Shown: one piece after another, positions 575 to 45,984 of the stretch | Position numbering within the stretch: position 1 is the stretch's first letter | Layout of the letters: every line of letters starts with the position of its first letter | Assembly (NCBI GenBank): GCA_000004985.1 | Contig: GG738924.1 | Source of the DNA: Naegleria gruberi | Lineage: Eukaryota | DNA: 64,000 bases | Reading direction: 5' to 3' (one strand) | Program-made: the position numbers and the translations under genes | Notes under the pieces: model-generated | Seen by the model: only the letters and a program-made list of their open reading frames with translations | What the model was told of the DNA's origin: nothing | The model's database searches: none

Positions 575-683
575 CAAAAGTTACCAAAATCTTAGTAGTA
601 CCGTTTCAGTTTTACCTAGTTGTAATAAACATCGGAAATTTATTTATGAATTTACACAAAAAACTCGAGGAAGTTAAATGATC

Positions 684-690
<7 letters not shown>
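575..690 (+). pseudogene. Orphan 3' fragment copied from the C-terminus of the gene at 8336..9214
   Basis: The + strand here translates to ...YQNLSSTVSVLPSCNKHRKFIY. This matches the C-terminal ...YDNLSSTVSVLPSCNKHRKFIYVFNNKS of the minus-strand ORF at 8336..9214. Nucleotides 580-660 are the reverse complement of 8360-8440. There is no upstream ORF, so this is a fragment, not a gene. Confidence 0.45.

Positions 691-716
<26 letters not shown>
687..716. repeat. (AT)15 microsatellite
   Basis: Perfect AT dinucleotide run. A second (AT)n at 8275..8310 sits in the mirror-image position next to the intact copy of the same gene 3' end. Confidence 0.9.
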
Positions 717-718
<2 letters not shown>

Positions 719-732
719 TATTTTCAACATCA

Positions 733-943
733 ATTTGTTCCAGTTAATTTTAAATCCATAGCTCTAAGAACCTCGTTAAAACCATTTGTCTTTTTCTTGT
801 TGTTAAAGTTTTTCCTTGCTTTGATGAAGGATCTGTTAAACTCCAAAACAGTATCATCTAAAAACAATTTTTCCTCTTTGTTCACATCTAATTCAACTAA
901 AGTATCCTTCAGCTTGTATTGTTTTCTAGCAATTGTTACATCT
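733..943 (-). CDS. Terminal coding exon of an unidentified gene
   Basis: The minus-strand frame is open for about 70 codons: ...VQDVTIARKQYKLKDTLVELDVNKEEKLFLDDTVLEFNRSFIKARKNFNNKKKTNGFNEVLRAMDLKLTGTN*. It follows a TTTTCAAG acceptor-like tract. It is not low-complexity. It is absent from the ORF track because it has no in-frame start. I recognise no homology. Confidence 0.3.
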
Positions 944-1606
944 TGTACCTTGAAAATATCATGTTTTTAAAACCACAAAATAATAAAATAATAAATTAAG
1001 ACAAATGGATTAAAAGCTCAAGGATTGAGACACCAATTAGTGAATCAACCTTGGAACCTGCTTTAAAGGATATAAATCTTTATTTAGCAGGTCCCTAGAA
1101 ATTAAAGTCTCAAAATTATGAAAAACTTATCGATAGTTTTGAAGCTAAAGATAAGAAAAAACATAGAGTATGTGAATAAATTGTAAAACCTGTGTCTTCC
1201 ATGAAGAAACAGAAAGCTAATTGAAGGAGAAGAACTTTCCAATTTGGGATATTCGAAACTTCGAGACTAAAGTAGTCAATTTGAGTAAGAAAGTGAAAAG
1301 CAACTGCATACATTGGAAGAATCACCAAAAAGTAAATGAATAACAAATAGAAAGTCCTAAAATCACCATTAATATATAAAAATCTATATGAATTTTCTGA
1401 AACAAATGGAATGAAAAATAAAATGATTCGAATCTATTAGAAACTGTCATCCAAAAAATAAGTTAGTGAATAAATGTAAAAATTGCACATCTTGAATGTA
1501 CACAGCCGCACTCTGAAATTAGCCCACTTACTGGGTGCTAATGAGCGAAATAAAGGCTGAAAAATTGTAAATACTAATTAAGGGTGGGTATGGGTGGGAC
1601 TTTGCC

Positions 1607-2175: not shown

Positions 2176-2254
2176 GAATTGTAAAGTTTTTGGCAGCTAT
2201 TGTAGTAGTTCTAACCTGAATTGTAAAGTTTTTGGCAGCTATTGTAGTAGTTCA
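2176..2254 (+). repeat. Tandem duplication of a 35-bp unit at the left junction of the retroelement
   Basis: aattgtaaagtttttggcagctattgtagtagtt occurs twice, at 2176-2210 and 2220-2254, separated by ctaacctg. It lies immediately before the point where homology to the inverted gag copy begins. Confidence 0.6.
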
Positions 2255-2684
2255 AACACCAAGCAAAGCGAATATCTCCAACATTCGTCAAAGAGTTTCA
2301 GCAAGCAAATCTTCAACTTCTACCTACAAGTCAGGTTACATCCCAGTAACTGACAATGGTAGCTCAGCTTCACTCCCCTCTGTGGTTGACCCAACAAGCA
2401 AAACCTTGGATAACAATCAAGCTGGTTCTGAAAAGAACCTTGATGCTATTTTCAACGCCATCACTTCTTTGGGTGAGAGAATAAAGCATCTCGAAGCTGT
2501 TCCTCCTGTTCTGCAACAAGCTAATCAACTTGATGAAGACCCTGATGAGGAATCCGCTGATGAGGATTTCACTGGTAAACATTGGGGTCTAACTACTATC
2601 AAGGAGATTAGACGTAACTACGAAGTTGGTGATAGACTATCTGTTATAGGCGATAAAAACTCGCACGAAGACCCAGGCAGTTAA
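2232..2684 (+). pseudogene. gag-like ORF1, N-terminal half, interrupted after ...NYEVGDRLS by a nested insertion
   Basis: It is 97% identical at the protein level to residues 15-160 of the intact minus-strand gag at 6911..7978. The reading frame leaves the gag sequence at nt 2642 and resumes at 4064. Confidence 0.5.
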
Positions 2685-4063
2685 ATTCGTTGGTATGAAC
2701 CTTCCAGGCGAAAAATACTTCTAGGATAGATTCCATTAAAATTATCCATCCCTAAAAGTCTGCTATATCAGGGATGGAATTAGGCCTTGCACAAATAGAA
2801 TCCAATTAGACAACACTTATCTGTTAAGGTAGGAATTATCATTAATATGATAAGTCTCATTAAACAAGCTCTATTAGCATGAATTTAGAGCCATTATGTG
2901 TAATATCTTGTTTTATGAACCTATTCAATATCTACTAGGATTTTATGAATTATCAAGTATTAAAGAAGTATATTTAATTGGTAAATAATCACAGATTAGT
3001 TTTTAAAAATTTAAAATCTCCAATTCAATGAATTTAACACAATAAATTAATGTGTGATACAAAAGTACAATGAAATTTATTATTTTGATGTTTTGACATG
3101 GTGAACATCTGGTTAGGCTGAGAACTTGCATGTTTAGAGAGAAATTTAAGATCTTTATGATCTCATCGAAATAAAACGAAATATTTGATATGGTACATCT
3201 ACAATAATACTAATAACAGTTTATTAATGTTTCAAGAAGTTTGGCTATGTACTTTTGGCATGAATCATGATATGTTATCATGAATATTCCGAAGTTGGTA
3301 AAACAACAAAATGATGAAAAACTGATAATAAATATATTGTTTATTATGTATTTGAATAGTAGTTATGAAAGACATTTTCAAAGTTGGTGAAGTACATGTT
3401 GAGTTATGGTCCATGTACATGTTGAAAATATACATGAACCTATCATCATGATAACCAATAGGAAAATGTTCGGAAGTGATTTTACCTGATGGAATCGACC
3501 ATGCTGAACAATACTAGATGAAAGTTTTCCAAATTACCATATGAATCTGGCAGTGATGATGATTTTAGTGAAAATATTGAATTTCACTAAAATATTACTA
3601 TTATCAGATTTATTTCCACAAATATTACTATTATAATGATGATAAATAACAATGATGATGGTTGGAAGTTGTTCCGATGATGGTTTACCAACTTGAATTT
3701 TTCCCAAGTGAAAATTAAATTCCAAATTTATAATCACAATCCAATAATAAAAAATACTACCAGTAATACTATTAGGATGATGTTGAGATGATGATGTGAA
3801 AGTTTGGTGGATTCATGGGGTGAAATCACTCTGAAAATCACCAAAGTGTTCCCAATGTGTGTTTGGGCTGAAATATTTTTTCTTAATGGTGGAAAATAAT
3901 GGAACGTGTATTTGTTCGGTGTTATTAATACATACAAGGCAACACCAAGAACTTTTGTCCATCAAATAAGCACCTTACTATTTTCGCATAGACATTTTAG
4001 GCTATTTTTTTTGGCCTATATATTTTTTGCCTGTTTTTCAGGCGAAAAAAGTAGCCTAGAACA
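2642..4063. mobile_element. Nested 1.42-kb non-autonomous TIR element (MITE-like) inside gag
   Basis: An intact gag is available for comparison at 7540-7560 (reverse complement). Against it, the insertion is flanked by a duplicated TATC (2638-2641 and 4064-4067). Its termini are TGTTATAGGC...GCCTAGAACA, imperfect 10-bp inverted repeats. Subterminal CAGGCGAAAAA motifs occur near both ends. The interior is AT-rich and non-coding, with (ATG)n-like tracts at about 3590-3700. Confidence 0.5.
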
Positions 4064-4131
4064 TATCCGATGGAGATGTCTTAAGTTTTGTCTCAGCCAA
4101 AACACTTCGTCATTACTCTTCCAATGAGGCG

Positions 4132-4698
4132 TTGTTGAGTAGAGTTCAAGTTTTGATGGCTCGATTTGAATCTGTCATTCACAACTCTCGTAACTATCCT
4201 CGTCTGCAAGAAATTCAATCCAAAGGCTTGCAAAAGATGATGGAAATGTTACATTTGAAGTCTAAATTACTTCAGTTTGCTCTGAGCCATCCATTAAATG
4301 TAACCAACATCATTGAAATCACTGAGTTGGTGTTTCTCCTCTCTGAGGTTGAGAAAATCTTTTTAGAAGAAGGTTTGTTCGAAAGTAACTTTGATGTTGC
4401 GAACCAATTTATTCAACCCTTCATCCAAAGCAACACGTTTGCTGATATAACAGAAAAAGCTCGTCAAAAGAAGAGAGAGAAGTCTATAGTAAAACATGCC
4501 ATCACCAGCAAGATCCAAAAACCTCTAAAGATGAAAGAAAAGTTTCAAAAACCGTCCTCTCATCAAGGTGGCATCCCTAACAGCTATTCAAAGCCATTCA
4601 ACAATTACAACAAGAGTGGTTCCTCTTTTCAAAAGTCAGGAGATTCCAAGCCAAAGTACAATAACAATGGTGGAGGATCTTTCAAACAAGACCTCTGA
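4132..4698 (+). CDS. gag-like ORF1, C-terminal part, resuming after the nested insertion
   Basis: Collinear with the C-terminal 190 aa of the intact gag copy (...RVQVLMARFESVIHNSRNYPRLQEIQSKG...GGGSFKQDL). It ends at TGA 4696-4698. The next ORF (4708..6687) continues in the same frame. Confidence 0.55.
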   Translation: MLSRVQVLMARFESVIHNSRNYPRLQEIQSKGLQKMMEMLHLKSKLLQFALSHPLNVTNIIEITELVFLLSEVEKIFLEEGLFESNFDVANQFIQPFIQSNTFADITEKARQKKREKSIVKHAITSKIQKPLKMKEKFQKPSSHQGGIPNSYSKPFNNYNKSGSSFQKSGDSKPKYNNNGGGSFKQDL

Positions 4699-6553
4699 CT
4701 TGGTAGGTTGCCGTCTCAACAAGTTTGTACCTCAGTGGGAGAGTTACAACTTCAACCCATTTATAGTGGATTGGATTCGAAATGGAGTCCCAATCTACTC
4801 AAATCCCACCCTTTGGAAAGAATTCAAACAAAGGAAGAATTTCTCTCCAAAGGAAACCTCTTGGATGGATCAGGAAATCCAAGATATGCTGAGTTCCAAT
4901 GTAATAGAGATTGGAAACAGTTCAACAATATTGAACCCAATAAACATTGTACCCAAGAAGGGTTCGGATCAATTTCGCTTTATTCTAGACCTAAGGAAGG
5001 TCAATTTAGGAATAAAGGACAGTTCCTTCAAGATGGACAACATTCAAAGATGTTTGAAATTTGTTCAGAAGGGAATGTGGGCAACAAAGATAGACCTGAA
5101 GAAGGGTTACTTCCACGTTCCAATCAGGGAGAAACATCGCAATCTTCTTGGATTCCGGTACAAGGACAAGATTTATCAGTTCAAATGCCTACCGTTTGGG
5201 CTAAGTCAAGCTCCCAGAAATTTCACAAAGATTATGAAAGAGTTGGTGACCAAGTGGAGAAAGAAGGGTATTCTAGTATTTATTTACATAGACGATATTT
5301 TGATTCTAAGCAACAGCAAAGAAACTACCCAACTGCTCACAGACATAGTCATGAAGGATCTGGAGACATTGGGATGGATAATCCAGAAAGAGAAAAGCGT
5401 ATTAGCACCGTGTCAACACATAGAGTTTCTCGGTCTGGAACTGGATCTCGTACTTGGCCTTGTGAAAATCCCAGTCAACAAACAATCAACAGCCTTAGAA
5501 ATGATTCAAAAATTCTTATCAGCAAACCAACGGAACAGGTTTGTAGCATGCAAGAAAGTAGCACAATTCCTCGGAAAGATGGAATTTCTAACTCTTTCAA
5601 ACCACTACTTTGCTCCCTTTCTTGCTCGTCTTCGGAAGGATATGGTGAAAGTAGTAAACGACAAATCTTGGCACGCATCAATGAGAATATTCAGAGGTGC
5701 AGCGAAGGATCTAAATATTTTGAAAGATCTGATTCAGGAAAACAGTGGAATTCCCTTCGAACTGAATTCAATGAACCCAATTCGAGTGAATTCAGATGCC
5801 TGCCCAACAGGCTATGGAATTCACGCAGAGTCAACCATTACAATTGGAAGATTCACTTCCTCAGAACACATCAATGTGAAAGAGTTAAAAACACTCCTCA
5901 TTTTCTTCACACAAGCAGATCGGTTAAACCTTTATGGTCCTGGACAAGCATTCGAAATCAGAGGCGACAATGTTACAGCAATTTCCTATATAAGGAGAGG
6001 TTACGGAGTCATAGAAGAACTCTCTCAAATTGCCAGAGACCTCTACAAGATCTTGATGAGAAGAAAATGGTGGATTTCAAAGGTGATTTACATTCCCTCA
6101 AAGGAGAACAATCTAGCAGACAGACTGAGTCGCTTAACAGAATGGAAATCATCTCAAGAACTACTGCATCTAGTTCAGACAGAATTTGGAGAACACCATG
6201 TGGACAGGTTCGCGACATCGGAATCAACCACAACAATTCAATTCAACTCATGGATAGAGAACGACACATTCTTGAATCCATGGGAACAAAATCTGATGAG
6301 TTATTGTGTTCCTCCTCTGGGTCTGATATCTCAAGCTCTAGTTCATTGCATAAAATCAGAAGCGAAAGCGACATTTGTAGTTCCAGACTGGCCCTCTTCG
6401 ATATGGTTTCCAGTCTTGCTAAAGATATCAGAAAGGATAATACCTGTTTCCCGAAAGATGCTTATAATAACGCCCTTGTCAGAGTTGCAAGACAAGTTCG
6501 AGACTTCCAATTTCCTGGTTGTTCAAGTGCATGGCAAGTTGTTCAAGCAATAA
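4568..6553 (+). CDS. Reverse transcriptase / RNase H polyprotein, DIRS type
   Basis: 661-aa ORF in frame 2, overlapping the gag end by 130 nt. It has RT blocks including YIDDIL, and RNase H motifs DACPTGYG...DNVTAISY...IPSKENNLADRLSR. Confidence 0.8.
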   Translation: MASLTAIQSHSTITTRVVPLFKSQEIPSQSTITMVEDLSNKTSDLVGCRLNKFVPQWESYNFNPFIVDWIRNGVPIYSNPTLWKEFKQRKNFSPKETSWMDQEIQDMLSSNVIEIGNSSTILNPINIVPKKGSDQFRFILDLRKVNLGIKDSSFKMDNIQRCLKFVQKGMWATKIDLKKGYFHVPIREKHRNLLGFRYKDKIYQFKCLPFGLSQAPRNFTKIMKELVTKWRKKGILVFIYIDDILILSNSKETTQLLTDIVMKDLETLGWIIQKEKSVLAPCQHIEFLGLELDLVLGLVKIPVNKQSTALEMIQKFLSANQRNRFVACKKVAQFLGKMEFLTLSNHYFAPFLARLRKDMVKVVNDKSWHASMRIFRGAAKDLNILKDLIQENSGIPFELNSMNPIRVNSDACPTGYGIHAESTITIGRFTSSEHINVKELKTLLIFFTQADRLNLYGPGQAFEIRGDNVTAISYIRRGYGVIEELSQIARDLYKILMRRKWWISKVIYIPSKENNLADRLSRLTEWKSSQELLHLVQTEFGEHHVDRFATSESTTTIQFNSWIENDTFLNPWEQNLMSYCVPPLGLISQALVHCIKSEAKATFVVPDWPSSIWFPVLLKISERIIPVSRKMLIITPLSELQDKFETSNFLVVQVHGKLFKQ

Positions 6554-6687
6554 GGGATCTTAGTATCCTTTCATCAATAGCTGAGAAAACATTCAGAACT
6601 TATAATAGAATTTATGGTGGTTTTCTCTGGTTTATCAATGTGTTTGATCTCACCATTGATGATCCTATAGCTATTGAATATTGTTGA
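4708..6687 (+). CDS. 659-codon ORF overlapping the RT ORF in another frame, the same frame as gag (candidate second pol-region ORF)
   Basis: There are no stops for about 2 kb although the region is AT-rich, which is very unlikely by chance. It starts 3 codons after the gag TGA, in the gag frame. Its first 76 codons are also present in the inverted partial copy (6671..6901, minus). DIRS-type elements are known to carry overlapping ORFs. I could not identify catalytic recombinase motifs by eye. Confidence 0.4.
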   Translation: MPSQQVCTSVGELQLQPIYSGLDSKWSPNLLKSHPLERIQTKEEFLSKGNLLDGSGNPRYAEFQCNRDWKQFNNIEPNKHCTQEGFGSISLYSRPKEGQFRNKGQFLQDGQHSKMFEICSEGNVGNKDRPEEGLLPRSNQGETSQSSWIPVQGQDLSVQMPTVWAKSSSQKFHKDYERVGDQVEKEGYSSIYLHRRYFDSKQQQRNYPTAHRHSHEGSGDIGMDNPEREKRISTVSTHRVSRSGTGSRTWPCENPSQQTINSLRNDSKILISKPTEQVCSMQESSTIPRKDGISNSFKPLLCSLSCSSSEGYGESSKRQILARINENIQRCSEGSKYFERSDSGKQWNSLRTEFNEPNSSEFRCLPNRLWNSRRVNHYNWKIHFLRTHQCERVKNTPHFLHTSRSVKPLWSWTSIRNQRRQCYSNFLYKERLRSHRRTLSNCQRPLQDLDEKKMVDFKGDLHSLKGEQSSRQTESLNRMEIISRTTASSSDRIWRTPCGQVRDIGINHNNSIQLMDRERHILESMGTKSDELLCSSSGSDISSSSSLHKIRSESDICSSRLALFDMVSSLAKDIRKDNTCFPKDAYNNALVRVARQVRDFQFPGCSSAWQVVQAIRDLSILSSIAEKTFRTYNRIYGGFLWFINVFDLTIDDPIAIEYC

Positions 6688-7041
6688 ACTGTTTCCAATC
6701 TCTATTACATTGGAACTCAGCATATCTTGGATTTCCTGATCCATCCAAGAGGTTTCCTTTGGAGAGAAATTCTTCCTTTGTTTGAATTCTTTCCAAAGGG
6801 TGGGATTTGAGTAGATTGGGACTCCATTTCGAATCCAATCCACTATAAATGGGTTGAAGTTGTAACTCTCCCACTGAGGTACAAACTTGTTGAGACGGCA
6901 ACCTACCAAGTCAGAGGTCTTGTTTGAAAGATCCTCCACCATTGTTATTGTACTTTGGCTTGGAATCTCCTGACTTTTGAAAAGAGGAACCACTCTTGTT
7001 GTAATTGTTGAATGGCTTTGAATAGCTGTTAGGGATGCCAC
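6574..7041 (-). pseudogene. Truncated N-terminal fragment of the RT ORF in the inverted copy
   Basis: Its first 120 aa are identical to the start of the 4568..6553 ORF (MASLTAIQSHSTITTRVVPLFKSQEIPSQ...NSST). It then diverges at the copy junction. Confidence 0.5.
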
Positions 7042-7940
7042 CTTGATGAGAGGACGGTTTTTGAAACTTTTCTTTCATCTTTAGAGGTTTTTGGATCTTG
7101 CTGGTAATGGCATGCTTTACTACAGACTTCTCTCTCTTCTTTTGACGAGCTTTTTCTGTTATATCAGCAAACGTGTTGCTTTGGATGAAGGGTTGAATAA
7201 ATTGGTTCGCAACATCAAAGTTACTTTCGAATAAACCTTCTTCTAAAAAGATTTTCTCAACCTCAGAGAGGAGAAACACCAACTCAGTGATTTCAATGAT
7301 GTTGGTTACATTTAATGGATGGCTCAGAGCAAACTGAAGTAATTTAGACTTCAAATGTAACATTTCCATCATCTTTTGCAAGCCTTTGGATTGAATTTCT
7401 TGCAGACGAGGATAGTTACGAGAGTTGTGAATGACAGATTCAAATCGAGCCATCAAAACTTGAACTCTATTCAACAACGCCTCATTGGAAGAGTAATGAC
7501 GAAGTGTTTTGGCTGAGACAAAACTTAAGACATCTCCATCGGATAGTCTATCACCAACTTCGTAGTTACGTCTAATCTCCTTGATAGTAGTTAGACCCCA
7601 ATGTTTACCAGTGAAATCCTCATCAGCGGATTCCTCATCAGGGTCTTCATCAAGTTGATTAGCTTGTTGCAGAACAGGAGGAACAGCTTCGAGATGCTTT
7701 ATTCTCTCACCCAAAGAAGTGATGGCGTTGAGAATAGCATCAAGGTTCTTTTCAGAACCAGCTTGGTTGTTATCCAAGGTTTTGGATGTTGGGTCAACCA
7801 CAGAGGGGAGTGAAGCTGAGCTACCATTGTCAGTTACTGGGATGTAACCTGACTTGTAGGTAGAAGTTGAAGATTTGCTTGCTGAAACTCTTTGACGAAT
7901 GTTGGAAATATTCGCCTTGCTTGGTGTTTGAACCATTTCA
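6678..7940 (-). mobile_element. Inverted, 3'-truncated second copy of the DIRS-like element (5' region + gag + first ~280 nt of pol), head-to-head with the long copy
   Basis: The reverse complement of 6680-7940 is collinear with 2257-2641 plus 4064-4933 of the long copy. It has no nested insertion. The two arms meet at about 6677/6690. The copy's own upstream region 7941-8274 runs to the (AT)n at 8275. Confidence 0.7.
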
Positions 7941-7978
7941 ATATACTTAATTTTTTTGAGCATAAAATTATTTATCAA
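6911..7978 (-). CDS. Intact gag-like ORF1 of the inverted copy (355 aa)
   Basis: MVQTPSKANISNIRQRVSAS...GGGSFKQDL* is uninterrupted here. In the + copy the same protein is split into 2232..2684 and 4132..4698. Confidence 0.65.
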   Translation of the reverse strand: MINNFMLKKIKYIEMVQTPSKANISNIRQRVSASKSSTSTYKSGYIPVTDNGSSASLPSVVDPTSKTLDNNQAGSEKNLDAILNAITSLGERIKHLEAVPPVLQQANQLDEDPDEESADEDFTGKHWGLTTIKEIRRNYEVGDRLSDGDVLSFVSAKTLRHYSSNEALLNRVQVLMARFESVIHNSRNYPRLQEIQSKGLQKMMEMLHLKSKLLQFALSHPLNVTNIIEITELVFLLSEVEKIFLEEGLFESNFDVANQFIQPFIQSNTFADITEKARQKKREKSVVKHAITSKIQKPLKMKEKFQKPSSHQGGIPNSYSKPFNNYNKSGSSFQKSGDSKPKYNNNGGGSFKQDL

Positions 7979-8271
7979 CTCAATTTTATTGTTTACAATT
8001 TGTCGTAATACTAACGTTGCATCGTTCCTCGCAACTCTACATTGGAAGTAATAATCTTTATGGTAAATCCAAAGAAAATAAATTCAAAGAAAAAACAAAC
8101 TTTGTAAAAATATTACAAAAACACTGTTATTAGAAGTAGTAAAAGTAGAGTTATGATAGTTGTTTATTAAAACAAAGAAAAACTCTTACAACAAGAAATA
8201 GACAACTAGATTCATGGAGGTTGATGGAGTAGTTTAAAAATAAATGGAACAACTAATATCTAACATCAATT

Positions 8272-8274
<3 letters not shown>

Positions 8275-8310
<36 letters not shown>
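8275..8310. repeat. (AT)18 microsatellite
   Basis: Perfect AT run. It is the mirror partner of the (AT)15 at 687..716. Confidence 0.9.
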
Positions 8311-8312
<2 letters not shown>

Positions 8313-8335
8313 CAAATATCATCATTTGACTACTT

Positions 8336-9214
8336 TCAGCTTTTATTGTTAAAAACATAAATAAATTTCCGGTGTTTATTACAACTAGGTAAAACTGAAA
8401 CGGTACTACTAAGATTATCGTATCTAGTGGGGAACTTATGAAAATTAGGGGTTCTGCTGGCCCATTTGCTGACTTTTTCAATGGTTTCTACTGCTTTTAC
8501 TTTTTCAGCAGATTTAATGGCCTTCTCTTGTTGTTTGGAGGTGATTTGGTCAAGTGAACCTCCTGATTTGTAGCTGTTAGAGAAGTTTTCAGCTGCTTCA
8601 AAGCCATTTTTAATGCCCATTCGAATACAGACTAGATTTAACTCAGAAATATTCTGAATAAATTCAAATCCTTGAAGAATAAGCGGTAAATCAAGGGTAT
8701 CACTCTCTCTCAAACGCTTGCAGATTTGAGAGATGATAAAAGAGTTTGTTAAAAGTAAAGAATAACCTTTACTTTTAATATCTTTTATACCAGATGAATC
8801 TGGAATGGGAGTGTCTACTTCTTTTCTGAACAACAATTCAAGAGCAGCCATTCTATTCTTGAATTCCAAGTTGTCAGCGTATGGAGCATTGGCTGTTTCG
8901 AATAGAAGAGAAACAGCTTCTTCCAACGGCAAATCTTCTTTCAATGACTCACCAAACATTCTTTGGTAAGAGTTGATGACGTGGTTTTTAAACCAATCAT
9001 CTGGTTCATCAGCAACTCTTGCTCTTTTACCAGAAACCTCTTCAGATGGGTTGGACTCAAACAATTCCATCGAAGAAGCGAGAGCAGAAGCACCTTGTGA
9101 ACCAACCTTGGCGGAAGGAGTTAGAACAATGACTCGTTGCTCGCTACCTGCAGAAGGTGAGCTAAGGTCTTTCGTTTTCTTGTTGTTCTTTGGTGTAGTT
9201 GGTGTTGGGGCCAT
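8336..9214 (-). CDS. Hypothetical protein (292 aa)
   Basis: Single ORF with an acidic, S/P-rich N-terminus and a helical C-terminus. Its last 35 codons are duplicated in inverted orientation at 575-690. The motif CATGCTCAAAAAATTATCACA lies immediately upstream of the ATG. Confidence 0.5.
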   Translation of the reverse strand: MAPTPTTPKNNKKTKDLSSPSAGSEQRVIVLTPSAKVGSQGASALASSMELFESNPSEEVSGKRARVADEPDDWFKNHVINSYQRMFGESLKEDLPLEEAVSLLFETANAPYADNLEFKNRMAALELLFRKEVDTPIPDSSGIKDIKSKGYSLLLTNSFIISQICKRLRESDTLDLPLILQGFEFIQNISELNLVCIRMGIKNGFEAAENFSNSYKSGGSLDQITSKQQEKAIKSAEKVKAVETIEKVSKWASRTPNFHKFPTRYDNLSSTVSVLPSCNKHRKFIYVFNNKS

Positions 9215-44534: not shown

Positions 44535-45984
44535 ATATTGAGGTCATTCAAAAATTAAGTGTTTTTCAACACAAGCAATACACAAATTTTTTTAGTGGTA
44601 ATTGGATTCATTTTTGTTTGTGTTGTGTGTTTGTGTTTTGGCCATTAAAATTACACATACAATACATATTTTTATTCATCGATATCCATGAGATCTGCGA
44701 GAATTAATTTAGTCTTCACTGCGTATTGGGTATTCGTTTAAATAAATATTCGTTAAAATTGCACAAACCAACACAATTACTGGTTGACAACTAATGGAAT
44801 GCCTAAAAAGTTTTGCTAATATTTGAAATCGCTTTAGAAATGCATTTGTGATTTCAATTATAACTCTTTCATATTTCTGTTCATAATTTAGGTAAGATCC
44901 ATCACTCATAGGTTCAATCAGTTTTCCAGGAATTGAGTTGACCGAAAATCCACTGTCAACATTAACTTTGAATTTTGGATTCTTTTGTACTGCTTTATGA
45001 AGTCCAGATAATTTTAAAACAGTGTTATCATTCATTGAACCTCTAAAACCAATACTAATATGTGCTATTATTCCTGTTCTGTAAGTGGTAATTTGTGTGA
45101 TTAGGTCATGTCTTTTATCTTTTCGGTAATTTAAATGTTGAAGATAATTTGTTCTTGAATGTTTGAAGTGTGTAAATAAAGATTTATATCCTTTAAAGCA
45201 GGTTCCAAGGTTGATTCACCATATGGTGTCTCAATCCTTGAGCTTTTAATCCATTTGTCTTAATTTATTATTTTATTATTTTGTGGTTTTAAAAACATGT
45301 GTTAGATTAGTATTTAACAAAGGATGAGTTAATAAATTATCATCATGTAATTTGATAGTTTGACTTGTTATGTTAGTAGCAATATTAGTTAAAATATGAG
45401 GCAAATCAATACTTAATGTTGATAAACTAATACCAAACATTAAACTAATCCAAGTATTAGCAACACCACCCTTTAAATACATTAAAGCAGCTAATAATCA
45501 ATCTTCATTACTTAAAAGTCTTCTTTCTTTCTGTTATTAAATGATTTATGCTTTGATTAATTTAAATTGTGATATTGTTACTCCTGTCAAAGATAAGAAC
45601 AATCCTTTATCTTATTGAAGAACGGAAGTATTGATTCTTTGTATTCTATTTGTTGAAAATCAATGTGAATCTATTAAACCTTCTTTTTGTAGTGTAAATA
45701 GGATCAAATATTAAAGGAGGTGGAATATTAATTAAGTTTAAAATATTATATATTAATTCAAGTTCAGAATTACTGCAACTTGTTATTAGTAATTGTTCTT
45801 TTATAATTAGTAATAGTTTGTTTTGTTTTTGAGAAGATGAAGAATAATTTCTTCCGATAATGGTGTACCATTAATTGGAGGAGGATTTAAAATATCTTGT
45901 GTAACATTTAACAAGTCCTCCAGTATTTGTTGTGTCGAAGGTGATGGTAGTTGTGTCATTTTTTTTCCATTTAGATTTTTTAAT

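What the first reader, a model, noticed from the sequence alone, without database searches (positions are those of the whole stretch)
2176..8310. DIRS-like retrotransposon island: a long copy, a head-to-head inverted partial copy, overlapping pol-region ORFs and a gag stop followed by a same-frame ORF
The RT/RNase H ORF (4568..6553) carries DIRS/Ngaro-type motifs (FKMDNIQ, YIDDIL). This class also uses a tyrosine recombinase rather than an integrase.

A 659-codon ORF (4708..6687) overlaps the RT ORF in another frame. It is in the same frame as gag and starts 3 codons after the gag TGA (4696-4698). This suggests stop-codon readthrough, or an overlapping recombinase-type ORF, as in DIRS-1.

The right-hand 1.26 kb (6678..7940, minus strand) is a clean inverted copy of the element's 5' region, gag and pol start. 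It contains the only intact gag, whereas the + copy's gag is split by a nested insertion.

The + copy lacks its gag ATG. Homology begins 2 nt into the coding sequence, next to a tandem 35-bp duplication (2176..2254).
Basis: partly seen in the sequence, partly recalled or inferred. Interest (0 to 1): 0.6.

Follow-up and report, generated by a model that had tools for sequence, protein, structure and literature searches.

The report
Two broken DIRS1-like retrotransposon copies
This is a dead, rearranged pair of copies of a tyrosine-recombinase (DIRS1-type) retrotransposon in the amoeba Naegleria gruberi. The long second reading frame over its polymerase gene is a real, conserved feature of this transposon class: the lead-in to the recombinase gene, probably reached by ribosomes reading through a leaky UGA stop at the end of gag.

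Summary
The sequence observations are confirmed, with corrections. The window is Naegleria gruberi NEG-M.

**What the island contains**
- A + copy of a DIRS1-like element. Gag is cut off at its ATG and split by a 1,422-bp insertion. RT/RH/Dam-like pol is intact. The copy breaks just inside the recombinase ORF.
- A younger 5' fragment on the minus strand, joined to it tail-to-tail (not head-to-head) at a 6-nt AATATT microhomology.
- No recombinase catalytic domain anywhere in the window.

**The 662-codon overlapping frame is not fortuitous**
- Synonymous shuffles of pol predict about 37 stops in it; there are none.
- It is also stop-free in 4 close and about 50 distant metagenomic relatives, where it runs on into a Phage_integrase domain.
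- This is the "long pol/YR ORF overlap" already described for DIRS1-like elements.
- Only openness is conserved. The peptide is no more conserved than pol forces it to be, and it has no conserved ATG.

**The gag stop**
- It is TGA-C here and in 21 of 31 lineages, and never TAA.
- One clade has no stop at all and encodes a continuous gag-X-YR ORF.
- I therefore infer Gag-X-YR synthesis by UGA readthrough. This is inferred, not shown.

Verdict: an ordinary, dead TE copy of a known kind. The comparative hint about how the class is expressed is the only modestly new point.

The parts
2176..2259 (.). 42-bp tandem duplication spanning the junction between flanking DNA and the 5'-truncated + copy
   Evidence: family D3: 2176-2215 and 2218-2257, 98%; sequence. 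The repeat unit includes the first gag bases (GTTCAAAC), so the duplication arose after the truncation.
2250..2641 (+). + copy, gag 5' part (from codon 2; ATG replaced by GTA)
   Evidence: I2, 98% to 7542-7943; one search lists the differences.
2642..4063 (.). Nested non-coding insertion with a 4-bp target duplication TATC (2638-2641 / 4064-4067) and termini TGTTATAGGC...GCCTAGAACA (TG..CA). It looks like a solo LTR or a MITE; unclassified.
   Evidence: no ORF longer than 73 aa; absent from the minus copy.
4064..4698 (+). + copy, gag 3' part ending in TGA (4696-4698) followed by C (4699)
   Evidence: Host genes in the window end in TAA in 23 of 26 cases and never in TGA-C.
4535..6553 (+). pol ORF, in the +1 frame relative to gag. 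RT lies at about 4949-5443, the RNase H region at about 5790-6140 (motif level only), and the Dam-like MT at about 6140-6448. The conserved N-terminal motif (VGCRL, equivalent to PLGGRL) begins 4 nt after the gag stop.
4699..6684 (+). X: the stop-free gag-frame stretch overlapping all of pol. It is the 5' part of the tyrosine-recombinase ORF (ORF2). Here it is cut off at about 6682, inside the N-terminal region of YR, and closed by a fortuitous TGA at 6685-6687.
   Evidence: (P0039 continues ...PIAIEYYISYLL... where the window has ...PIAIEYC*).
6677..6682 (.). Junction of the two copies: 6-nt palindromic microhomology AATATT
6677..7943 (-). Minus-strand partial copy: intact gag (7936..6911, NAEGRDRAFT_54067) plus the first ~120 codons of pol and the start of X. 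About 0.9% diverged from the + copy.
7944..8162 (-). Presumed 5' UTR and left terminus of the minus copy. The true end is not defined.
   Evidence: Inference only. There is no homology to the region upstream of the + copy. Homology to the 579-828 flank repeat begins at 8163.

Best explanation
**What it is**

The island is two defective copies of one recently active DIRS1-like (tyrosine-recombinase) retrotransposon family of Naegleria gruberi.

- The older + copy has lost its 5' end up to the gag ATG.
- It has taken a 1.4-kb nested insertion in gag.
- It has lost everything 3' of the first few codons past the end of pol: the YR catalytic domain, the ICR and the right ITR.
- A younger 5' fragment (5' UTR, gag, start of pol) abuts it in convergent orientation at an AATATT microhomology.
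- Neither copy can transpose on its own, although pol is still intact.

**The overlapping ORF ('X')**

X is the pol-overlapping 5' portion of the element's recombinase ORF (ORF2 of DIRS1-like elements).

**How it works (inferred)**

1. Ribosomes translating gag mostly stop at a deliberately weak UGA-C.
2. A fraction read through it and traverse the whole pol region in the gag frame.
3. They emerge into the recombinase domain and make a Gag-X-YR fusion.
4. Because X shares its nucleotides with pol, its sequence is dictated by pol. It is selected only to stay free of stops, so it acts as a long, S/R-rich, probably disordered spacer.
5. Pol sits in the +1 frame, and its conserved sequence starts right at the gag stop. 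It is presumably made by a +1 frameshift or by internal initiation in the 164-nt gag/pol overlap. This step is unresolved.
For: **Identity**
- Exact protein matches place the window in N. gruberi NEG-M.
- Pol has RVT_1 plus Dam-like MT and no integrase or protease. The closest solved structure is Ty3 RT.
- Sister copies in N. gruberi: P0040, and P0039 with a Phage_integrase hit at E=3.5e-5.
- Relatives L001 and L002 are arranged gag / pol / YR.
- The more distant relatives L007 and L010 have canonical ITRs plus an ICR.
- The literature already describes a long pol/YR ORF overlap, with the catalytic domain in the non-overlapping 3' end (PMC3266345).

**X is under selection to stay open**
- X has 0 stops against 29-37 expected in each of the 5 close elements.
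- Across 58 loci it has 0 stops against 9-43 expected.
- It is also open in an N. lovaniensis copy.

**Only openness is conserved**
- X amino-acid identity for the window against its relatives is 26-30%, against a null of 25-28% (z = 0.2-2.0).
- It tracks pol identity along the whole length.
- There is no Pfam domain.
- The first Met falls at codon 117, 19, 41, 42 and 39 in the five elements.

**Readthrough**
- The junction stop in 31 non-redundant lineages is TGAC 21, TGAG 5, TGAA 1, TGAT 1, TAGG 2, TAGC 1 and TAA 0.
- The pol and YR stops of the same loci are TGAC in 2 of 95 and TAA in 28 of 95 (Fisher p = 2e-14, not corrected for phylogeny).
- 16 of 26 TGAC sites read UGA-CUN.
- A clade (L015, L020, L031, L085 and others) has no stop at all. 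It encodes one 1,300-1,430-codon gag-X-YR ORF with pol nested in the +1 frame.

**Two separate insertions**
- The minus-copy gag is identical in protein to P0039 residues 1-307. The + copy has private L>F, V>I and N>S changes.
Against: - There is no direct expression evidence of any kind.
- No conserved or unusually stable RNA structure follows the UGA (z about 0 in the five close elements). Any readthrough would rest on the stop-codon context alone.
- TGA-C could also serve as a +1 frameshift site, since the next +1 codon is always GAC. The C could then be constrained for that reason instead.
- Some lineages carry extra in-frame stops. L007/L008 have a TAA-A 105 codons upstream of the TGA-C, and L009 has a TAG inside X.
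- The stop-codon statistics are not corrected for phylogeny.
- Four close relatives have an ATG overlapping the pol stop (ATGA), which could give YR by termination-reinitiation without X. The N. gruberi family has ATA there.
- The termini (ITR/ICR) of this family were not seen, so DIRS1-like versus PAT-like is not formally settled.
Confidence: 0.75

Rival explanations
1. The 659-codon frame is a fortuitous open frame produced by pol's composition or codon usage.
For: No Pfam domain. The peptide is not conserved beyond what pol imposes.
Against: Shuffles that preserve codon usage give 29-37 stops (minimum 16-24) against 0 observed in five elements sharing only 52-58% pol identity. The same holds in 58 loci. 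The other alternative frame has 58-68 stops.
Confidence: 0.01
2. X is translated on its own, from an internal AUG or non-AUG start or after reinitiation. Either it is an independent overprinted protein, or it is simply an N-terminal extension of YR without Gag. The gag stop would then be an ordinary terminator.
For: DIRS literature treats ORF2 as a separate ORF. Relatives have a Met 19-42 codons into X. L007 has a strong TAA-A stop within the gag frame upstream.
Against: The window family has no ATG for 117 codons, yet the frame is open from the gag stop onward. The junction stop is never TAA and is mostly the leakiest context, UGA-C. A whole clade fuses gag and X-YR with no stop. A 1-kb gag full of AUGs makes leaky scanning implausible (general knowledge of eukaryotic initiation).
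Confidence: 0.17
3. YR is made from a spliced subgenomic mRNA that joins gag to the end of X plus YR, as in the JGI gene model NAEGRDRAFT_60086. That model joins gag residue 307 directly to ...DAYNNALV... and removes about 1.87 kb of pol.
For: The model exists (P0039). Both sides are in the same frame.
Against: Splicing would remove any need to keep about 620 codons of the 'intron' open, yet they are open in nearly 60 lineages. The model is an automatic prediction, and no transcript evidence was available here. N. gruberi introns are typically short (general knowledge).
Confidence: 0.05
4. The convergent arrangement arose in place as a fold-back (template-switch) inverted duplication of one element at the AATATT palindrome, rather than from two insertions.
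For: There is a 6-nt palindromic microhomology exactly at the junction. The arms are 98-99% identical. An older inverted repeat also flanks the island (579-828 / 8163-8425, 77%).
Against: The minus copy has the ATG and a 5' UTR that the + copy lacks. Its gag protein is identical to other genomic copies, whereas the + copy has private changes. The outer flank repeats are asymmetric (about 1.4 kb from the + copy, and 0-0.2 kb from the minus copy) and far more diverged.
Confidence: 0.25
5. The element is a Ty3/gypsy-type LTR retrotransposon.
For: The RT is closest to Ty3 RT among solved structures. This is expected for DIRS RT.
Against: There is no integrase, protease or LTRs. A Dam-like MT domain is present and YR is found in family members. 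ITR/ICR are present in relatives.
Confidence: 0.01

Closest known systems
DIRS1-like retrotransposons (DIRS-1 of Dictyostelium discoideum; superfamily surveyed by Piednoel et al. 2011, PMC3266345)
   Same: ORF1 is gag. Pol is RT-RH-Dam-like MT. There is a tyrosine recombinase but no protease or DDE integrase. The YR ORF overlaps pol at length, with the catalytic domain in the non-overlapping 3' end. N. gruberi was already listed there as carrying 7 degenerate copies in 6 families.
   Different: In this window both copies lack the YR catalytic domain and the 3' ICR/ITR, so the diagnostic termini cannot be seen. The published survey called the N. gruberi elements too degenerate to classify. This family has an intact gag and pol, plus an intact YR elsewhere in the genome (P0039).
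PAT-like / kangaroo / TOC elements (sister group of DIRS1-like)
   Same: Same protein set, including the MT domain.
   Different: They are defined by split direct repeats rather than ITR + ICR. This is not decidable here. The nearest relatives whose termini are visible (L007, L010) have ITR + ICR.
Ngaro / VIPER YR retrotransposons
   Same: RT-RH plus YR.
   Different: They lack the MT domain and usually lack ORF overlaps (PMC3266345). Here the MT-like domain and the overlap are both present.
Type II programmed stop-codon readthrough (UGA-C / UGA-CUA, e.g. the alphavirus nsP3/nsP4 opal codon; MuLV gag-pol UAG readthrough) - from general knowledge
   Same: A leaky UGA followed by C (often CUN) separates a structural ORF from an in-frame enzyme ORF. 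Related lineages replace the stop with a sense codon, as some alphaviruses do.
   Different: No downstream structure was detected. The read-through region is about 620 codons of sequence-unconstrained spacer overlapping another gene. Nothing has been shown experimentally.
+1 frameshift sites at slow stop or rare codons (antizyme UCC-UGA-U, RF2 CUU-UGA-C, Ty1/Ty3) - from general knowledge
   Same: Pol is in the +1 frame, and its conserved sequence begins with the GAC embedded in TGAC. Several distant lineages have UCC-UGA-C.
   Different: There is no consistent P-site codon. The pol frame is open for 164-233 nt upstream of the stop. The mechanism is untested.

Membership tests
DIRS1-like retrotransposon | Ty3/gypsy-related reverse transcriptase | tested here: met
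   RVT_1 E=4.8e-25. The best solved match is Ty3 RT, 4ol8, E=3e-19.
DIRS1-like retrotransposon | RNase H domain after RT | tested here: inconclusive
   The window ORF has no Pfam RNase H hit. One of 7 aligned relatives hits RT_RNaseH (5.9e-5) and one hits RVT_3. Invariant D410/E439/D467/D518 columns fit the DEDD pattern (motif reading from general knowledge).
DIRS1-like retrotransposon | Dam-like methyltransferase domain at the C-terminus of pol | tested here: met
   PF05869 E=9.2e-6, 25.9 bits (cut-off 28.1), residues 525-627. Five of 7 aligned relatives match.
DIRS1-like retrotransposon | Tyrosine recombinase ORF | tested here: not met
   Not met in this window. The X frame has no domain, and there is no YR fragment anywhere in the 64 kb. 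It is met for the family: P0039 from another N. gruberi scaffold (Phage_integrase E=3.5e-5) and L001 (2.6e-10). The window copies are truncated members.
DIRS1-like retrotransposon | No aspartic protease and no DDE integrase | tested here: met
   No such Pfam hits in gag, pol or X.
DIRS1-like retrotransposon | Inverted terminal repeats plus an internal complementary region (versus the split direct repeats of PAT-like elements) | not testable with these tools
   Both window copies lack the 3' end. DNA of the other N. gruberi copies could not be fetched. Close relatives L001-L004 are truncated contigs. ITR + ICR were seen only in the distant relatives L007 and L010.
DIRS1-like retrotransposon | Long overlap of the YR ORF with pol (present in about half of described elements) | tested here: met
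   literature.
Programmed stop-codon readthrough (type II, UGA-C) | Leaky stop context, with an in-frame downstream ORF under selection | tested here: met
   TGA-C in the window and in 21 of 31 lineages; 0 TAA. The downstream frame is kept open. A clade has the stop replaced by sense.
Programmed stop-codon readthrough (type II, UGA-C) | Demonstrated synthesis of the extended protein | not testable with these tools
   No expression data were available.
Programmed stop-codon readthrough (type II, UGA-C) | Downstream stimulatory RNA structure (present in some, not all, known cases) | tested here: not met
   No consensus structure. Fold z-scores are about 0 in the five close elements.
Ty3/gypsy LTR retrotransposon | LTRs, protease and DDE integrase | tested here: not met
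   None found.

The most novel reading that the evidence does not exclude
In DIRS1-like elements with the 'long ORF overlap', the recombinase is not a separate ORF2 product. It is made as a Gag-X-YR fusion by programmed readthrough of a UGA-C at the end of gag.

The ~620-codon stretch overlapping pol would be a sequence-unconstrained, stop-free spacer that exists only so that ribosomes can cross pol in the gag frame.

Together with a +1 shift into pol at or near the same stop, one leaky stop codon would then set the ratio of three products: Gag, Gag-Pol and Gag-X-YR. All of this would happen in a retroelement that has no protease. I found no paper in the searchable library proposing this.
Probability: 0.45. 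Interest if true: 0.6.

Novelty: new member of a known kind. Interest (0 to 1): 0.35.

Why it matters
For the window itself it matters little. It is a dead, rearranged transposon remnant, and the gene model NAEGRDRAFT_54067 ('predicted protein') is simply its gag.

It does show that N. gruberi hosts, or recently hosted, an intact DIRS1-like family. The 2011 survey could not classify its elements.

The wider value is comparative. The 'long ORF overlap' of DIRS1-like elements has been described but never explained. Four observations give a concrete, testable model of how a protease-less retroelement delivers its recombinase:
- the frame is in phase with gag;
- it is kept open but not conserved;
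- it is separated from gag by a UGA-C and never by a TAA;
- it is fused to gag outright in one clade.

It would also be an extreme example of an overlapping reading frame that is selected only for translatability.

Tried and rejected
1. **Pfam scan of the X frame, both gag pieces and the flanking ORFs.** Nothing was found in X or gag.
2. **Search for a conserved or stable RNA structure after the gag UGA.** None was found.
3. **Fetching DNA of the other N. gruberi copies (P0039, P0040) to define the termini.** They are not on record in the contig index.
4. **Alignment of the region upstream of the + copy to the 5' UTR of the minus copy.** There is no homology, so the + copy really is 5'-truncated.
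5. **Test for selection on the X peptide** (pairwise identity against stop-free synonymous shuffles, plus a sliding window).
   - No clear excess for the window pairs.
   - A small excess in closer pairs is attributable to unsaturated synonymous sites.
   - There is a weak rise in wobble conservation in the last ~100 codons.
6. **Search for a second copy or a YR fragment elsewhere in the window.** None was found.
7. **Literature searches linking DIRS to readthrough or frameshifting.** Nothing relevant was found in the open library. Subscription papers (Cappello 1985; Goodwin and Poulter 2001; Poulter and Goodwin 2005) could not be checked.
8. **Selenocysteine decoding or a variant genetic code for the UGA.** Considered and set aside. 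Host genes in the window use standard stops, mostly TAA, and some lineages use TAG at the junction.
9. **A fixed +1 slippery motif at the stop.** The P-site codons vary (AAG, CAA, AAA, UCC, CUC and others), so the pol mechanism is left unresolved.

Full report
**Source and setting**

Six long ORFs of the window are exact matches to annotated proteins of Naegleria gruberi strain NEG-M, all on one 196,593-bp scaffold. The window is about 33% G+C, and the island rises to 39%.

**Checking the observation**

- ORF listing and stop-free span analysis confirm the RT ORF (4568..6553; the frame is open from 4535). They also confirm the gag 3' piece ending in TGA at 4696-4698, and a frame in phase with gag that is stop-free from 4699 to 6684.
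- Repeat finding confirms two inverted arms, 4064-4935 / 6674-7545 (99%) and 2240-2641 / 7542-7943 (98%). They share 4 nt in the minus copy.
- The + gag is therefore interrupted by a 1,422-bp insertion (2642-4063) with a TATC target duplication.
- The insertion is non-coding and ends TG...CA with a 10-nt imperfect inverted terminus.
- The + copy has GTA where the minus copy has the gag ATG, and nothing upstream of it resembles the minus copy's leader.
- The tandem duplication at the left edge has a 42-bp period and includes the first gag bases, so it arose after the truncation.

One description needs correcting. The + copy reads left to right and the partial copy reads right to left, and their broken 3' ends meet. 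They are therefore convergent (tail-to-tail), not head-to-head. The + copy is recognisable up to 6682 and the minus copy from 6677. The shared AATATT is a 6-nt palindromic microhomology.

**What the element is**

- Pol has a strong RVT_1 domain and a Dam-like methyltransferase domain just under Pfam's cut-off. Five of seven aligned relatives also match that domain.
- There is no protease or integrase. The closest solved protein is Ty3 reverse transcriptase.
- The intact gag of the minus copy is the annotated 'predicted protein' NAEGRDRAFT_54067.
- Two further N. gruberi proteins fall in its 90% cluster.
  - One is a second 341-aa gag.
  - The other is P0039, a 631-aa automatic gene model. It joins gag residues 1-307 to the last ~75 residues of the overlapping frame and continues into a tyrosine-recombinase domain.
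- P0039 shows exactly where the window copy breaks. Intact copies read ...PIAIEYYISYLL..., while the window reads ...PIAIEYC-stop.
- No recombinase fragment exists anywhere else in the 64 kb.
- Four metagenomic relatives share 52-57% pol identity. Both contigs that extend past pol (L001, L002) carry a Phage_integrase ORF immediately downstream.
- More distant relatives whose contigs include both ends (L007, L010) show the canonical DIRS1 architecture. They have inverted terminal repeats plus an internal region complementary to both termini.
- The published survey of DIRS1-like elements lists N. gruberi with 7 copies in 6 families, judged too degenerate to classify (PMC3266345).

**The overlapping frame**

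The same survey states that the YR ORF (ORF2) can overlap pol considerably. It places the catalytic domain in the non-overlapping 3' end, and found long overlaps in half of 28 annotated elements. The 4699..6684 frame is that feature. I tested it independently in four ways.

- Shuffles: permuting synonymous codons within pol (amino acids and codon usage kept) gives 29-37 stops in this frame, with a minimum of 16-24 in 2,000 shuffles. Zero are observed in the window and in each of the four close relatives. The third frame has 58-68 stops.
- Breadth: a scan of metagenome contigs returned 80 more DIRS-like loci.
  - In 58 of about 90 loci overall, the frame at -1 to pol covers at least 80% of pol with no stop, against 9-43 expected.
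  - It usually runs 800-1,000 nt beyond pol, which is the recombinase.
  - An annotated N. lovaniensis protein is a chimera of the pol frame and this frame.
- Peptide conservation: X identity between the window and its relatives is 26-30%, against 25-28% expected from pol's constraint plus stop avoidance (z = 0.2-2.0). It tracks pol identity along the whole length.
- Content: X has no Pfam domain. It is S/R/Q-rich with few hydrophobic residues and has no conserved ATG. The window family has none for 117 codons.

So the selection is for translatability, not for a particular protein sequence.

**The gag stop**

- In the window and in all four close relatives the gag stop is TGA followed by C.
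- Host genes in the window end in TAA in 23 of 26 cases and never in TGA-C.
- In 31 non-redundant lineages that have a recognisable same-frame upstream ORF, the junction stop is TGAC 21, TGAG 5, TGAA 1, TGAT 1, TAGG 2, TAGC 1 and TAA 0.
- The pol and YR stops of the same loci are TGAC in 2 of 95 and TAA in 28 of 95 (Fisher p = 2e-14, not corrected for phylogeny).
- Sixteen of 26 TGAC sites read UGA-CUN. From general knowledge, UGA-C and UGA-CUA are the leakiest eukaryotic contexts and the alphavirus-type readthrough motif.
- One clade (L015, L046, L085, L020, L031, L030 and others; 50-57% pol identity to each other) has no stop at the junction.
  - It encodes a single ORF of 1,300-1,430 codons that starts with a Met near the 5' end.
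  - The ORF runs through a gag-like region with a QPFRG / RGG tail, then X, then YR, with pol nested in the +1 frame.
- Alternation between a stop and a sense codon at one position across related elements is the classical comparative signature of readthrough.
- I found no conserved or unusually stable RNA structure after the stop.

**Pol expression**

- Pol is in the +1 frame. Its first conserved motif ((P)LGGRL; VGCRL in the window) begins 4-34 nt after the gag stop in the close family. The codon embedded in TGAC is always GAC.
- The pol frame is nevertheless open for 164-233 nt upstream of the stop and contains ATGs. The codon before the stop varies among lineages.
- A +1 frameshift at or near the stop and internal initiation both remain possible. 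I could not separate them.

**How the island formed**

- After excluding the edges, the two copies differ at 11 of about 1,260 positions (0.9%).
- The minus copy's gag protein equals P0039 residues 1-307. The + copy carries private L>F, V>I and N>S changes, the nested insertion and the 5' truncation.
- I therefore favour two insertions of a recently active family, an older + copy and a younger minus copy, followed by deletion. DIRS-1 in Dictyostelium is known for such nested, fragmentary clusters.
- A fold-back duplication at the AATATT palindrome is not excluded.

**Flanks**

- The island lies within what is a three-exon gene model in a paralogue or allele (NAEGRDRAFT_76405, on another scaffold). 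Its parts map to 9214-8504, 1840-1688 and 954-733, all on the minus strand.
- The window's own model NAEGRDRAFT_54068 is a truncated version of that gene.
- A 77%-identical inverted repeat with (AT)n tracts (579-828 / 8163-8425) brackets the region.

**Verdict**

- The object is an ordinary, dead member of a known transposon class, and the overlapping ORF is a described property of that class.
- What may be new is the comparative evidence that this frame is a stop-free spacer reached by UGA-C readthrough from gag. This is an inference resting on sequence statistics alone.

Noticed in passing
window 2642-4063: A 1,422-bp non-coding insertion inside the + gag. It has a 4-bp target duplication (TATC), termini TGTTATAGGC...GCCTAGAACA (TG..CA) and a subterminal AGGCGA(A/T)AAAA motif at both ends. 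It looks like a solo LTR or a non-autonomous element. There is no other copy in the window.
   Followed up: partly
window 579-828 and 8163-8425: A 77%-identical inverted repeat, each arm containing an (AT)n microsatellite, brackets the island and its neighbouring host exons. The right arm supplies the last ~30 codons of gene model NAEGRDRAFT_54068. Its origin is unresolved: an old inverted duplication of the host gene's 3' end, or a dispersed repeat.
   Followed up: partly
window 9214-8504, 1840-1688, 954-733 (all minus strand): The paralogue or allele NAEGRDRAFT_76405 (on a 15-kb scaffold) is built from three segments that map to these places. In the window the transposon island therefore sits between 'exon 1' and 'exon 2', and the local model NAEGRDRAFT_54068 is a truncated version. 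The other scaffold may be the empty site.
   Followed up: partly
window 960-1086 and 45173-45299: A 127-bp repeat, 97.6% identical and in inverted orientation, lies 44 kb away. It is probably a small dispersed element.
   Followed up: no
P0039 (NAEGRDRAFT_60086) and P0011 (N. lovaniensis C9374_003761): Two public gene models are artefacts of the overlapping frames. P0039 'splices' gag to the end of X plus YR across about 1.87 kb of pol. P0011 switches from the pol frame to the X frame part-way through.
   Followed up: yes
L001-L004: pol stop / YR start (e.g. L001 ~3059-3064): In the four close metagenomic relatives an ATG overlaps the pol stop (ATGA). This is a termination-reinitiation-like arrangement at the start of the recombinase. 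The N. gruberi family has ATA-AGG and a TAA pol stop instead.
   Followed up: partly
L005/L006 and L010: Other DIRS-like lineages use different layouts. In L005/L006, gag and pol are fused in one 1,060-codon ORF and the YR ORF overlaps only the last ~205 codons in the -1 frame. L010 has three nearly separate ORFs. Thirty-one of about 90 loci lack the long overlap.
   Followed up: partly
L007/L008 (1467-1787): In this distant relative the gag frame carries a strong TAA-A stop 105 codons before the TGA-C. The short ORF between them encodes the basic RG-rich tail. Two contigs from different samples share this, so it is not a one-off mutation. It does not fit a simple single-readthrough model.
   Followed up: no
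window 4699-6550, frame +1 relative to pol: The third frame over pol has more stops than synonymous shuffles predict (58-68 against 46-54 in all five close elements). This may be a by-product of the codon choices that keep the X frame open.
   Followed up: no
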